DNA of 64,000 bases from the human T2T-CHM13v2.0 reference genome, Homo sapiens (GCF_009914755.1 NC_060939.1); one strand, 5' to 3'. Positions 24,565 through 53,299 are shown, counted from the first letter of the stretch. The notes: a model not told the origin generated them from the letters alone. Program-made: numbers and translations.

Positions 24565-30252
<5,688 letters not shown>

Positions 30253-32190: not shown

Positions 32191-33623
32191 CCGGGGAGGC
32201 CCGGGGATCGTGGAGGCTAATTCAGCGGGCCGAGTTGGGCCTGCCCCAGATGAATTCCTCTGGAGCTGACCGGCCCGCGCAGAGAGCAAGTGATGTGGAC
32301 AGCTGCCTTCAGCATCGCAGCCCCCAGCTCAGTGTGCTCTGTTGGGGGTGCAAGAAGAACATAAGCCTGGCTCTTTGGGAGCCCACAGTCTGTGGAAAAG
32401 AGGAAGACAGACAAGAAATAAGGCAGTGGCCTCACAGTGCTCTGAATCCAGGGTGGCCAAGGCTCAGGGGACTATGGGAGCGGGAAGAAAGAACAATCCC
32501 CACACCCTCAGAGTCAGAGACAGCTTCTCCCAGAAGCTCCCCCCAAGAACCATCTTCAACCTGTAAAAGCTCTGAAAATTCTCCAAGTGTTCTAAAAATA
32601 GTTCTCCCTGTAGGGATGGGCCAGGTTCTGTGGGCAGGGGAGTCTACCTTTGGACCCTCCAGGAGACCCTAGGGCCTGACCTGAAAAATCAGAGCCTTCC
32701 CTGGGAGCCCTGCCTAATTGCTTCAGACTTAGGCTCCCAGGTAGCTGTGACGTTTCTGCAGGAACTGCCTTTGTTTGTCCTCAGTGTTGCAGATGAAATT
32801 TGCCTTGTCTTCTTATGCTATGAGAGCTCCTATTTCAGTCTCTAGGCATCTTCTGTGGGCCCCTGGGGTGATGAGTGTTGTCACTGCTGTCCTGGGAGCA
32901 TGATGTTGTCAGGCCTGGGTAGGCACTGGAATAACACTTAATTCTGCTGGCTGGTGGCCTTCTGGAGAAATTCCCTGCCTTAGGGGCAGCTGAGGGGTAA
33001 GAGAGACCTGGTGATCCCCATAGAACTTCTCTGTGAGAGGGGGTTCCCTATTAGCTAAGTATACTCTAATCAGACATGTAGCTTTTGTGTTCTGGCTGGT
33101 AGCTGGGGCAGATAAGGCTCAGGGGAAAGGCTAATGAAAGGAGTCACCCTTGGTTTTCAGCTAGTCTTGGTGGTTGCCACGTAGCAGAGGTTAGGGAGGG
33201 AAGCCCCACATGCTGGAACTGAGGTCTCTGGGACCTGAAATAGGAGGGTCAGAATTCCCAGAGCTTCCATGGCAGCCTGGAAGTTGGAGAATGGGTAGAA
33301 ACATATTTGGCTGTAAATGCTTGTTTGTTCTTCATACTAATGGCTCAGCTGCTCTCTCATCCCTCATTCTGTCCTCTAGTCCTTTGAGCCTTCTCTCCTT
33401 CAGCAGTTTGGCAATGCAGGCCCCACGTTTTCCAACAGGAGACAGAAACCCAGTCCCTGTCATCTCTCTCTAAAAGCCTGTGATAGAGAAGCTTCAGGCT
33501 CGTATTAATGGTGCCCAAGGGCCTTGGGGCTTTGACTTTTATTTCCTTATTGTCTGCAGTCACGGCCTAGAAAGAGAGATGTTGGGGTTCCCAGGACCAG
33601 GACAGAGGTGGTAGTGAACTCTC

Positions 33624-34704
33624 ATGGGCATCCAGAGAAGGTCAGGCCCCTTGCTGACAGGCCTATCTGTGGGGCTACTGCTGCTCTTCAGCTGGGTGAC
33701 CCTTGTCCAGCCAACCTCTCTCTCAGGTACAGCACTTACCCCTGTGGCCCACCTGCCTCTGGTGCTATGGGCTATTCCTGGGAACTGGAACTGATGGGGA
33801 TGGGTGGAAGGGCATCTTTTCTTCTGGTAGGGGCTGATCTCTTTTACTCTCCAGTAGGGGTGGAGTGAGCTGTGGAAAGGCCCCTCCTGCTTGTCTCTAG
33901 CACCCCCACCTCTCTCTTCAGCTCTGGTCCACCACCCTCACTTGTGCCAGACCACCCGGGATGTCCATGGCCGTCACTACCCTGGTTTCTTTTGCCCTCG
34001 TCTGTCTGATTCTCCAGAGGAAGCCTACTGCTGCCACCTGCAGGCTGCAGGGGGCTCCTGCTGCACCCGGGCTGAATTTGAGGCCCTGTACCAAGTCAAT
34101 CTGTCCGCTCTTCCGCCCCCGCCCATCCTCAGGTGAGATCTCCAACCCCAGAGCCACTGGAACATCGACAGGGTGTTCCAGTATCTGGGGCTCTGTTCCT
34201 AAATTATGGGGTGGTAGGCTTGTAACTTACAGACTAGTGAAGGGACAGACCGCAACAGAAAATCATGTAGATCATGATTACAATTACAAAGGAGAAGTTC
34301 AGGGGGCTGTGCAAGCTGGTAATGGGGAGCCATCCTGAATCTGCCCATGGGTGGCTCTAGGATGAGCTCCTAAATTCGTATGCAAATGTGTGTATGTAAG
34401 ACGACACTTATTTGGGGAGGGAGTCCTGAGCTTTCTCCGGACTCCCAGGGATTCTGTACCCCCCACAGAGCGCAGCAGCGAGAGCGCGGTCGGGGCCGGG
34501 ATCCAGATACTTTTTCTCTCCCGCAGGGGCCCAGGCCCGCTCCTAGTGCTGGGCCTCTACAACCTACTGGTTGTGACCCTGATGACCGTAGACCTCGTGC
34601 ACTTCTGCTGCGGTCGGGGCCGGAGTCTGGGCTGGAGCCACCGCAGGCCTCCCTCTGGGTCCTCCGCCGCGAGCTCCCTGCAGGTCTCTGCGGGGACAGC
34701 TTAG
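33624..34704 (+). CDS. Shisa-like (SHISAL1/KIAA1644-related) type I membrane protein, 3 exons, 163 aa, upstream of UNC45A
   Basis: Exons 33624-33726 (phase 1), 33922-34132 (phase 2), 34527-34704, all GT-AG and in frame. Signal peptide, C..C..CC..CC domain containing GFFCPRLSD, NLS sequon, TM segment LLVLGLYNLLVVTLMTVDLVHF, then CC. Confidence 0.75.
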
Positions 34705-34907
34705 GTGCGCCCGGAGCTTGCCTGCACCTGCGATCCAGAGCCAAGCGCCCCGCCCCTGCCCGGGCGCGCTCCCTCCTTAGCCCTGCCCCTCTCTGACCCC
34801 ACCTCCGACGCAAGAGTGGGGCGGGGCAGCTGCCGGTGGCGTCCCGAACCCAGACTCGCCCCGCCCCAGAGACTGCGCCTGCGCGGGCACGAGACAACCT
34901 CTCCGCG

Positions 34908-53299
<18,392 letters not shown>

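What the first reader, a model, noticed from the sequence alone, without database searches (positions are those of the whole stretch)
33624..34704. Hidden Shisa-like membrane-protein gene in the UNC45A 5' leader
Seen: three GT-AG exons (33624-33726, 33922-34132, 34527-34704) join in frame (phases 1 and 2), behind an in-frame upstream stop (TAG 33612-33614). They give 163 aa: MGIQRRSGPLLTGLSVGLLLLFSWVTLVQPTSLSA-LVHHPHLCQTTRDVHGRHYPGFFCPRLSDSPEEAYCCHLQAAGGSCCTRAEFEALYQVNLSALPPPPILR-GPGPLLVLGLYNLLVVTLMTVDLVHFCCGRGRSLGWSHRRPPSGSSAASSLQVSAGTA. The unspliced ORF track shows only two of these pieces, in separate entries. Knowledge: signal peptide + C-C-CC-CC domain + TM + juxtamembrane CC is the Shisa-family layout. 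From memory, SHISAL1/KIAA1644 has a closely similar G-F-x-CPRLSD block, a CC-x3-EF-x-A-x2-Q-x-NL(T/S) segment and a TM ending D-L. Inference: an unnamed SHISAL1 paralog embedded in what is usually treated as UNC45A 5' UTR, with each domain on its own exon.
Basis: partly seen in the sequence, partly recalled or inferred. Interest (0 to 1): 0.95.

Follow-up and report, generated by a model that had tools for sequence, protein, structure and literature searches.

The report
Conserved Shisa-like gene upstream of UNC45A
Three exons usually drawn as the untranslated leader of the human UNC45A gene encode a small, evolutionarily conserved membrane protein related to SHISAL1, which human RefSeq does not list as a gene although others have already flagged the exons as coding.

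Summary
Exons 33624-33726, 33922-34132 and 34527-34704 have GT/AG borders and join in frame to an intact 163-codon ORF behind in-frame TAG and TGA stops. The exon borders equal RefSeq alternative UNC45A exons.

The interpretation also holds. The middle exon matches one other human locus, a chr22 exon (by recall SHISAL1), at E 1.5e-7 with the same intron phases. Intact orthologs of about 160-180 aa are predicted as "protein shisa-like-1/1a" in 23 named placental species, and in birds, turtles, amphibians and fishes. They form a clade separate from SHISAL1. Human keeps 38 of 38 columns invariant in 23 mammalian orthologs. The human sequence alone is below Pfam's Shisa_N cut-off. A family profile and a fold model both put Shisa-3 first.

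It is not wholly new. Mudge et al. 2019 list this exon as PhyloCSF candidate rank 390, "UNC45A 5' exons, coding exon(s), novel". A rat gene "Shisal3" may be the ortholog (unverified).

I found no translation evidence, and the ORF has no poly(A) signal of its own.

The parts
33560..33623 (+). 5' leader part of the first ORF-bearing exon. It holds an 11-codon mini-uORF (ATG 33579, stop TAG 33612-33614) in the same frame as the main ORF, followed by TGA 33615-33617.
   Evidence: The hub table gives the exon start at 33560, and an AG acceptor lies before 33560.
33624..33726 (+). Coding exon 1: start codon and hydrophobic N-terminal segment, taken as a signal peptide. Intron phase 1.
   Evidence: mean hydropathy 1.86 over residues 9-27. 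Met1 is invariant in 23 mammalian orthologs. AF2 predicts a helix at residues 11-33 in the primate ortholog. No signal-peptide predictor was available.
33727..33921 (+). Intron 1 (GT..AG, 195 nt).
   Evidence: Spliced orthologous proteins P0106 and P0001 skip it.
33922..34132 (+). Coding exon 2: the six-cysteine Shisa-like ectodomain (C-x15-C-x11-CC-x8-CC), the GFFCPRLSD motif and an N-L-S glycosylation sequon. Intron phases 1 and 2.
   Evidence: It is PhyloCSF candidate region rank 390, 69 codons, with the same peptide printed in Mudge 2019 Suppl. Data S6.
34133..34526 (+). Intron 2 (GT..AG, 394 nt).
34527..34704 (+). Coding part of exon 3: transmembrane helix with a conserved Asp and His, an Arg/Gly-rich juxtamembrane stretch, a conserved C-terminal tail, and stop TAG 34702-34704.
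   Evidence: AF2 predicts a helix at residues 108-137 with block pLDDT 87-91. A second PhyloCSF candidate region of 33 codons, rank 3142, maps to the start of this exon.
34705..34907 (+). Intercistronic stretch within the same annotated exon (34527-34913 / 34527-34958). It has no ATG and no poly(A) signal. The UNC45A start codon follows at 34908.
   Evidence: hub table.

Best explanation
The three exons are a real, conserved protein-coding gene, or an upstream cistron of alternative UNC45A transcripts. It encodes a 163-aa type I single-pass membrane protein of the Shisa-like kind. The order of parts is an N-terminal signal sequence (exon 1), a six-cysteine Shisa-type ectodomain with one N-glycosylation sequon (exon 2), then a transmembrane helix carrying a conserved Asp and a short basic cytoplasmic tail with a conserved C-terminus (exon 3). 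It is an ancient paralog of SHISAL1 and the human ortholog of the genes that NCBI's pipeline calls 'protein shisa-like-1/1a' next to or within UNC45A in other vertebrates. Shown here: the intact ORF, the paralogy, the shared gene structure, the conservation pattern and the clade structure. A published PhyloCSF coding signature adds to this. Inferred: that the protein is made in human cells; the topology; and a role like other Shisa proteins, as a small transmembrane adaptor whose cysteine-rich domain and charged transmembrane helix engage another membrane protein. In the annotated human transcripts the ORF is the first long ORF. UNC45A's ATG is the seventh ATG, so these transcripts would mainly serve the Shisa-like protein, or be degraded, rather than make UNC45A.
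For: The ORF and its splice sites are intact.

Paralogy and gene structure:
- Exon 2 finds the chr22 exon at E 1.5e-7, with identical intron phases and a length differing by one codon.
- In 1.84 billion representatives there are 93 hits at E<=0.001.

Orthologs:
- With a full-length ortholog as query, 36 proteins score E<=0.001 among 647 candidates. Of these, 23 are named predictions from 23 placental species covering all four superorders, mostly 154-180 aa.
- 77 bird and turtle proteins and 12 fish and amphibian proteins follow. Precomputed Pfam Shisa_N is present in 25 of 77 and 9 of 12.
- One owl entry of this protein is filed under 'Unc-45 myosin chaperone A', which hints at the same linkage in birds.
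- The tree gives 43 chr15-type rows against 7 SHISAL1-type rows at SH-aLRT 100. The human end branch is 0.033.

Conservation pattern:
- 23 mammalian orthologs share 38 invariant columns: Met1, all six ectodomain Cys, GFFCPRL, N-x-S, and the TM Asp and His. Indels in the tail are in frame.
- Human keeps 38 of 38 invariant columns and 29 of 33 columns that are >=90% conserved.
- Unnamed spliced transcripts P0106 and P0001 follow the same three exons in frame.

Family assignment:
- Profiles find Shisa-3 CRD 5m0w at E 0.0013 (mammals only) and 1.2e-5 (93 rows).
- The AF2 model of human exon 2 has pLDDT 78.2. Its best match is 5m0w in Foldseek (prob 0.96, TM 0.51/0.55, E 0.23). 5m0w is also the best of 48,161 chains by VIA-align (Z 3.6, rmsd 3.4, 51 aligned; next Z 2.0).

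Published coding signature: Mudge et al. 2019 rank the exon-2 frame as PCCR 390 and annotated 'coding exon(s)'.
Against: No evidence of translation was found.
- The supplement of PMC10032668 that lists 7,264 catalogued Ribo-seq ORFs has none under UNC45A (0 occurrences in file 1).
- The peptide motif search found 0 papers.

Context features that argue against efficient expression:
- The start context is weak (C at -3, G at +4).
- Two short uORFs precede the ORF.
- No AATAAA, ATTAAA, AGTAAA or TATAAA lies on the + strand in 33001-36200.
- The stop lies 209 or 254 nt before the next annotated junction, so translated transcripts would be expected NMD targets.

Weak family scores:
- Pfam Shisa_N is below its cut-off for the human exon (13.7 against 22 bits).
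- 13 of the 23 mammalian orthologs match it at E<=1, the best at only 0.01.
- The fold scores are weak in absolute terms, and four of the five AF2 models had pLDDT 55-61.

Possible loss in some lineages: five unnamed protein clusters (P0006, P0007, P0008, P0021, P0022) read exon 2 or exon 3 in shifted frames. These may be lineage-specific loss or assembly errors.

No human, ape, Old World monkey, mouse or rat entry from a named source appeared.

I could not compute dN/dS, because no DNA of other vertebrates is reachable with these tools.
Confidence: 0.8

Rival explanations
1. In human the exons act only as an RNA leader. The long ORF is a translational or NMD-based brake on alternative UNC45A transcripts, and its peptide has no function of its own in our lineage.
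For: The stop lies 209/254 nt upstream of further junctions and there is no poly(A) signal. UNC45A's ATG lies downstream in the same exon. There is no catalogued Ribo-seq ORF under UNC45A. RefSeq treats the exons as UTR (hub table).
Against: The conservation is at the amino-acid level: six invariant Cys, in-frame indels, 38 of 38 invariant columns kept in human. A PhyloCSF coding signature is published. A brake would not need a Shisa fold kept from fishes to mammals.
Confidence: 0.1
2. The gene is functional in many vertebrates but is a recently relaxed relic, a pseudogene in waiting, in primates including human.
For: P0006, an unnamed primate-like cluster, is frame-shifted in exons 1-3 and has lost one Cys. 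Human and its nearest unnamed primate relative are only 91% identical over 163 columns. No anthropoid prediction from a named source appeared.
Against: The human ORF is intact and keeps every invariant column. Its 4 departures from near-invariant columns are conservative, and the 3 that lie in the transmembrane stretch are shared with P0106. The human end branch is short (0.033). The tarsier prediction and P0106 are intact.
Confidence: 0.08
3. The exons are alternative N-terminal coding exons of the UNC45A chaperone itself, a literal reading of the label 'UNC45A 5' exons'.
For: Mudge et al. filed them under UNC45A as 'coding exon(s)'. They share transcripts with UNC45A (hub table).
Against: The ORF ends at TAG 34702-34704, 203 nt before UNC45A's ATG, which is in another frame (frame 2 relative to the ORF). 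Orthologs end at the same place with a conserved C-terminus.
Confidence: 0.01

Closest known systems
SHISAL1 (KIAA1644), human chr22. The identity of the chr22 hit as SHISAL1 is by recall, and is consistent, which places SHISAL1 beside RTL6 and PRR5.
   Same: Same domain order. The six-Cys exon shares the GFxCPRLSD and CC..EF..NL(S/T) blocks at 42% identity. The intron phases are identical and exon length differs by one codon. An Asp sits in the TM helix.
   Different: It is a separate clade. The chr15 protein is shorter and has a different tail. Exon 3 finds no paralog in the genome. It sits inside the UNC45A transcription unit.
Gnomon/UniProt predictions 'protein shisa-like-1' and 'shisa-like-1a' in other vertebrates (for example hamster, cat, elephant, tarsier, zebra finch, tortoise, caecilians, sturgeon).
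   Same: These are the orthologs: 62-81% identity to human in the 20 named mammalian orthologs of A1, with the same length class and motifs.
   Different: They are annotated as genes of their own, or in one owl under UNC45A. Human RefSeq has no such gene (hub table). Their names come from similarity and do not separate them from true SHISAL1.
Shisa-3 N-terminal cysteine-rich domain (PDB 5m0w) / Pfam Shisa_N PF13908.
   Same: It is the first Shisa-domain hit by sequence profile and the best hit by fold. The Cys residues align.
   Different: It is distant: 28-31% identity, with Pfam below cut-off for mammals. The tail has no PPxY motif (read). That PY motifs typify Shisa tails is recalled from Pei & Grishin 2012, which I did not see.
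Conserved CDSs inside 5' UTRs of known genes (MIEF1, MKKS, RAB34, ALDOA cases in Mudge et al. 2019).
   Same: An upstream conserved CDS shares its RNA with a downstream, unrelated CDS (passage).
   Different: In those 13 cases GENCODE made separate genes. This one was filed as UNC45A coding exons.
Rat 'Shisal3, shisa like 3' (chr1:143705991-143707951 in a table of PMC12418956).
   Same: It is a roughly 2-kb Shisa-like gene on rat chr1. By recalled mouse/rat synteny, that chromosome carries the Furin-Unc45a region.
   Different: Orthology is not verified. I saw no sequence and no neighbouring genes.

Membership tests
Shisa / Shisa-like single-pass proteins (Pfam Shisa_N, PF13908) | Pfam Shisa_N match at or above the gathering score | tested here: not met
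   Human exon 2 scores 13.7 bits, E 0.069, against a cut-off of 22; it is still the top Pfam family. Among 23 mammalian orthologs, 13 match at E<=1 and the best is 0.01. Non-mammalian orthologs carry precomputed PF13908: 25 of 77 and 9 of 12. Membership therefore rests on transitive homology.
Shisa / Shisa-like single-pass proteins (Pfam Shisa_N, PF13908) | Conserved six-cysteine ectodomain pattern C..C..CC..CC | tested here: met
   Cys at 43, 59, 71, 72, 81, 82. All six are invariant in 23 mammalian orthologs and in 93 family rows. They align to the Cys of Shisa-3.
Shisa / Shisa-like single-pass proteins (Pfam Shisa_N, PF13908) | Fold of the cysteine-rich domain like the solved Shisa-3 domain | tested here: inconclusive
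   The model has pLDDT 78.2. 5m0w ranks first by Foldseek (E 0.23, prob 0.96, TM 0.51/0.55) and by VIA-align (Z 3.6, next 2.0). It is first in both, but the absolute scores are low.
Shisa / Shisa-like single-pass proteins (Pfam Shisa_N, PF13908) | Signal peptide, then ectodomain, then one transmembrane helix (type I) | tested here: met
   Hydropathy peaks at residues 9-27 and 109-127. AF2 predicts helices at 11-33 and 108-137 in the primate ortholog. Basic residues follow the TM helix. Signal-peptide cleavage was not tested because no predictor was on hand.
Shisa / Shisa-like single-pass proteins (Pfam Shisa_N, PF13908) | Proline-rich cytoplasmic tail with PY (PPxY) motifs (feature recalled from Pei & Grishin 2012, not seen here) | tested here: not met
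   The 32-residue tail after the TM helix has no PPxY (read). The conserved element is instead an S-S-A-A-R-P-L-Q-V..G-T-D-like C-terminus.
SHISAL1 subfamily | Significant direct similarity to the SHISAL1 cysteine-rich exon, with shared motifs | tested here: met
   E 1.5e-7, 42% identity over 59 residues. It is the only other human hit below E 0.1 among 16 matches. Motifs were read. G, F, C, P, R and L of the GFxCPRL block are invariant in 93 rows.
SHISAL1 subfamily | Same exon-intron design | tested here: met
   The cysteine-rich exon is flanked by phase-1 and phase-2 introns in both genes, at 211 against 214 nt.
SHISAL1 subfamily | Orthology to SHISAL1 itself | tested here: not met
   The tree of 50 rows puts it in a clade of 43 chr15-type rows, apart from 7 SHISAL1-type rows that include the human chr22 exon, with SH-aLRT 100 on the split. 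It is a paralog.

The most novel reading that the evidence does not exclude
Humans carry a fourth, unnamed Shisa-like gene with no 3' end of its own. It has been transcribed together with the myosin chaperone UNC45A since before the bird-mammal split. The two cistrons would then be functionally coupled: choice of promoter or leader decides whether the locus makes the membrane adaptor or the chaperone, with NMD or reinitiation setting the balance.
Probability: 0.15. Interest if true: 0.6.

Novelty: new member of a known kind. Interest (0 to 1): 0.4.

Why it matters
If the protein is made, the human Shisa-like family has one more member than RefSeq lists. Variants in what is read as UNC45A 5' UTR would then be missense or nonsense changes in a conserved membrane protein. 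The locus would also be a vertebrate-wide example of two unrelated proteins sharing one transcription unit.

The practical value is annotation. GENCODE filed the exons under UNC45A, RefSeq calls them UTR, other species have separate LOC genes under a misleading 'shisa-like-1' name, and rat may already have 'Shisal3'. These should be reconciled.

Tried and rejected
- Pfam on exons 1 and 3 gave nothing useful (a DUF378 hit at E 0.024 is a TM-like chance match).
- Exon 3 finds no paralog in the human genome (3 matches, the best non-self at E 1.68).
- AF2 on the full-length primate ortholog with only 23 mammalian rows gave a poor ectodomain (pLDDT 59.9). I replaced it with the 93-row run.
- The 93-row profile also hit FAM155A (E 5.1e-6) over the TM helix and a low-complexity tail. 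I take this as compositional.
- AC068831.7, which I recalled as a possible name, is a VPS33B-like 'novel protein' and not this locus.
- Literature searches that found nothing on this gene: UNC45A+Shisa (6 papers, none about it by title or abstract), UNC45A+uORF (2 papers, 1 listed, on Ebola polymerase), the peptide motif (0), shisal1a (1 paper; the passages shown were uninformative), and SHISAL1/KIAA1644 (113 papers; the 12 listed are omics lists).
- The main text of Mudge 2019 has no mention of UNC45A or Shisa; only the supplements do.
- The search of earlier findings was not open.
- File 1 of the Mudge supplements was not searchable.
- dN/dS could not be done, because no vertebrate DNA collection is reachable.
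- Complex prediction and the ESM Atlas were not used.

Full report
**1. The observation**

- ATG lies at 33624, preceded by in-frame TAG 33612-33614 and TGA 33615-33617.
- The splice borders are GT after 33726, AG before 33922, GT after 34132 and AG before 34527.
- TAG lies at 34702-34704.

A script that joined the three stretches from the window file gave 492 nt, or 163 codons, with no internal stop. Cys residues fall at 43, 59, 71, 72, 81, 82, 132 and 133, and hydrophobic peaks at residues 9-27 and 109-127. Exon lengths of 103 and 211 nt give intron phases 1 and 2. The four internal borders equal those of RefSeq 'other transcripts' of UNC45A in the hub's table, so both junctions are already annotated.

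**2. What it is related to**

Scores for the human sequence alone are weak.
- The translation of exon 2 (window 33924-34130) has Pfam Shisa_N as its best family, but below cut-off: 13.7 bits, E 0.069, cut-off 22.
- Its only PDB sequence match is Shisa-3 5m0w at E 0.32.

The human genome gives a clearer answer. A six-frame search found 16 matches at E<=10: the locus itself, then chr22:44780551-44780730 (E 1.5e-7, 42% identity, no stops), and nothing else below E 0.14.
- That chr22 open frame carries GFHCPRLSD and CC-NET-EF-Q-A-VM-Q-A-NLT.
- That the chr22 locus is SHISAL1 is my recall. (passages of a bioRxiv paper) only confirms that SHISAL1 lies beside RTL6 and PRR5.
- The chr22 exon has an AG acceptor giving phase 1 and a GT donor giving phase 2, and is 214 nt long against 211 nt here. 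The gene structure is therefore shared.
- Exon 3 has no paralog: 3 matches, the best non-self at E 1.68.

**3. Orthologs**

Exon 2 against 1.84 billion cluster representatives gave 93 proteins at E<=0.001, 10 at <=1e-10 and 5 at <=1e-30. A few of these are repeat-rich chance hits (P0009, P0010, P0013, P0017).

P0001 (165 aa) matches at residues 36-104, the layout of the human model. With P0001 as query, 36 proteins scored E<=0.001 among 647 candidates.
- 23 are named NCBI, UniRef or nr entries from 23 placental species: hamster, colugo, panda, elephant, reindeer, ground squirrel, alpaca, cat, dolphin, warthog, shrew, mole, chinchilla, tarsier, raccoon dog, pangolin, gray whale, pocket gopher, rabbit, goat, humpback whale, sloth and hedgehog. 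Most are called 'protein shisa-like-1' or '-1a'.
- 12 come from unnamed assemblies and 1 from metaclust.
- None is from human, an ape, an Old World monkey, mouse or rat.
- None has a precomputed Pfam domain.

Deeper groups were found with other queries.
- A second group at 43-48% identity to human exon 2 (A2), queried with P0025, gave 77 bird and turtle proteins among 314 candidates. 25 of them carry precomputed PF13908. One owl UniProt entry of 200 aa is named 'Unc-45 myosin chaperone A' yet is wholly Shisa-like. This hints at the same linkage to UNC45A in birds.
- A third query (P0036, sturgeon) gave 12 proteins from ray-finned fishes, caecilians and frogs. 9 of them carry PF13908.

**4. Tree**

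I built a quick IQ-TREE tree (SH-aLRT only) of 50 rows that I chose:
- human;
- 20 mammalian rows;
- 11 of the 77 sauropsid rows;
- 5 amphibian rows;
- 6 fish rows;
- 6 SHISAL1-type rows;
- the human chr22 exon.

169 of 427 columns were kept. The remaining rows were left out to keep the tree small, and partial or frame-shifted rows were excluded.

The split of 43 chr15-type rows from 7 SHISAL1-type rows has support 100. The mammals form one clade (support 100) on a long stem (1.32). The human end branch is 0.033, and its nearest row is the unnamed P0106. The root was placed on the SHISAL1-type rows by assumption. The human ORF is thus a paralog of SHISAL1 and the ortholog of the vertebrate 'shisa-like-1/1a' predictions.

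**5. Is it under protein-level constraint?**

In 23 full-length mammalian orthologs (A1; partial and intron-reading rows left out), 38 columns are invariant. They include Met1, all six ectodomain Cys, GFFCPRL, the N-x-S sequon, and an Asp and a His in the TM helix. The Arg/Gly-rich linker varies by in-frame indels, and the C-terminus is conserved. Only the first of the two juxtamembrane Cys is nearly invariant.

Human keeps 38 of 38 invariant columns and 29 of 33 columns that are >=90% conserved. The four departures are A>V, A>V, L>V and A>T; the three in the transmembrane stretch are shared with P0106. Unnamed proteins P0106 and P0001 follow human exons 1, 2 and 3 in the ORF frame with the introns removed. 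Spliced transcripts with the intact ORF therefore exist elsewhere.

Independent published evidence comes from Mudge et al. 2019 (PMC6886504).
- Supplemental Data S1 has a row for chr15:90934338-90943589+ with 4 regions, top rank 390, 'UNC45A 5' exons', category 'coding exon(s)', Novel? 'yes' (for the header).
- Supplemental Data S6 prints for rank 390 a peptide context that contains the whole of the human exon-2 translation. It gives 69 codons and notes overlap with ENST00000394275 as UTR5.
- A 33-codon region of rank 3142 maps to the start of exon 3.
- A check with an HDDC3 uORF from another supplement put the hg38-to-window offset at 90900417. That differs by one codon from the offset implied by the peptide, so the frame is not affected.
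- I read passages of the main text only. It does not mention this locus. It says GENCODE made separate genes of 13 UTR-embedded CDSs. This one was instead filed under UNC45A.

Evidence on the other side:
- Five unnamed clusters (P0006, P0007, P0008, P0021, P0022) follow shifted frames in exon 2 or 3 relative to human. P0006 is primate-like and has also lost a Cys. They may be lineage-specific pseudogenes or assembly errors.
- Human and P0106 are only 90.8% identical.
- I could not compute dN/dS.

**6. Family membership by profile and fold**

| Test | Result |
|---|---|
| Mammalian profile against PDB | Only Shisa-3 5m0w, E 0.0013, Cys aligned |
| 93-row profile against PDB | 5m0w at E 1.2e-5; FAM155A at 5.1e-6 over the TM helix and tail, which I take as compositional |
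| AF2, primate ortholog, 23 rows | Poor outside the TM helix: mean pLDDT 59.9; helix 108-137 |
| AF2, human exon 2, 93 rows | pLDDT 78.2, pTM 0.63; the other four models 55-61 |
| Foldseek against PDB | 9 matches at E<=10, none <=0.001; first is 5m0w (E 0.23, prob 0.96, TM 0.51/0.55, rmsd 2.4, 45 columns); the rest at E>6 |
| VIA-align against 48,161 chains | 2 with Z>=2: 5m0w Z 3.6 (rmsd 3.4, 51 aligned) and Prod1 Z 2.0 |

The rank is consistent across methods, but the absolute scores are low.

**7. Transcript context and likely working**

The annotated leader exons are 29763-29838, 33560-33726, 33922-34132 and 34527-34958. In these, two small uORFs of 16 and 11 codons end before the main ATG. 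The 163-codon ORF is the first long one, and UNC45A's ATG at 34908 is the seventh ATG, in another frame.

There is no AATAAA, ATTAAA, AGTAAA or TATAAA on the + strand in 33001-36200. The stop lies 209 or 254 nt before the next junction. No ATG lies between the stop and UNC45A's start. Exon 3 lies in the CpG-rich UNC45A promoter. These transcripts would therefore serve the Shisa-like ORF, not UNC45A, and would be expected NMD targets unless an unannotated 3' end exists.

No translation evidence was found. The Ribo-seq ORF table in PMC10032668 has no UNC45A entry (supplement search only). The function of SHISAL1 itself is not described in the 12 listed papers (titles and abstract starts only).

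The adaptor role is inferred from the family; that Shisa proteins act as transmembrane adaptors is recalled from Pei & Grishin 2012, which I did not see. The conserved TM Asp suggests an intramembrane contact with a partner.

**8. Novelty**

- Human RefSeq (hub table) has no such gene.
- No paper in the library links UNC45A's leader to a Shisa-like protein.
- The coding status is nevertheless in print in a supplement.
- Orthologs are machine-annotated widely.
- A 2025 rat paper lists 'Shisal3, shisa like 3' as a 2-kb gene on chr1:143.706 Mb (one passage). This may be the ortholog, but I could not verify it.

I rate it a new (unnamed) human member of a known kind, of moderate interest, with the main value in annotation.

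Noticed in passing
window 33579-33614 (+): An 11-codon mini-uORF lies in the same frame as the main ORF. It ends at TAG 33612, 9 nt before the main ATG. A 16-codon uORF lies in the far upstream exon (ATG 29787).
   Followed up: partly
window about 43086-43175 (+), UNC45A intron between exons 42495-42665 and 44475-44646: The fourth PhyloCSF candidate region of the same Mudge et al. cluster (hg38 chr15:90943503-90943589) maps here. An open frame across it reads like a possible alternative coding exon. RefSeq lists no exon there.
   Followed up: partly
window 34707-34736 (+): The third PhyloCSF candidate region (27 nt) lies just after the ORF's stop, in another frame that is the UNC45A start frame but upstream of a stop. 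It is probably noise in the CpG island.
   Followed up: partly
proteins P0006, P0007, P0008, P0021, P0022 (unnamed sources): These are relatives whose exon 2 or exon 3 is read in shifted frames, and one has lost a cysteine. They may mark lineage-specific loss of the gene in some primate, camelid, ruminant or carnivore-like lineages, or assembly errors.
   Followed up: partly
tree: The stem leading to placental mammals is very long (1.32 changes per column) compared with branches inside mammals (0.03-0.36). The protein changed fast once and was then held.
   Followed up: no
window 34527-34704 (+), residues about 106-131: An Asp inside the transmembrane helix is invariant in 23 mammalian orthologs. 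It is also present in the bird, turtle, fish and SHISAL1-type sequences that I read.
   Followed up: no
window 32217-32315 (-): A catalogued Ribo-seq uORF of HDDC3 (c15norep117) maps here. The hg38-to-window offset at this place differs by 3 nt from the offset implied by the exon-2 peptide. That suggests a 3-bp difference between the assemblies somewhere in 32.3-33.9 kb.
   Followed up: no
window 33954-34053 and 34684-35083: RefSeq functional-element rows (hub table) call part of coding exon 2 an enhancer, and call the end of exon 3 plus the UNC45A promoter a silencer. HDDC3 alternative exons (34568-34657/34729) lie antisense to exon 3.
   Followed up: no
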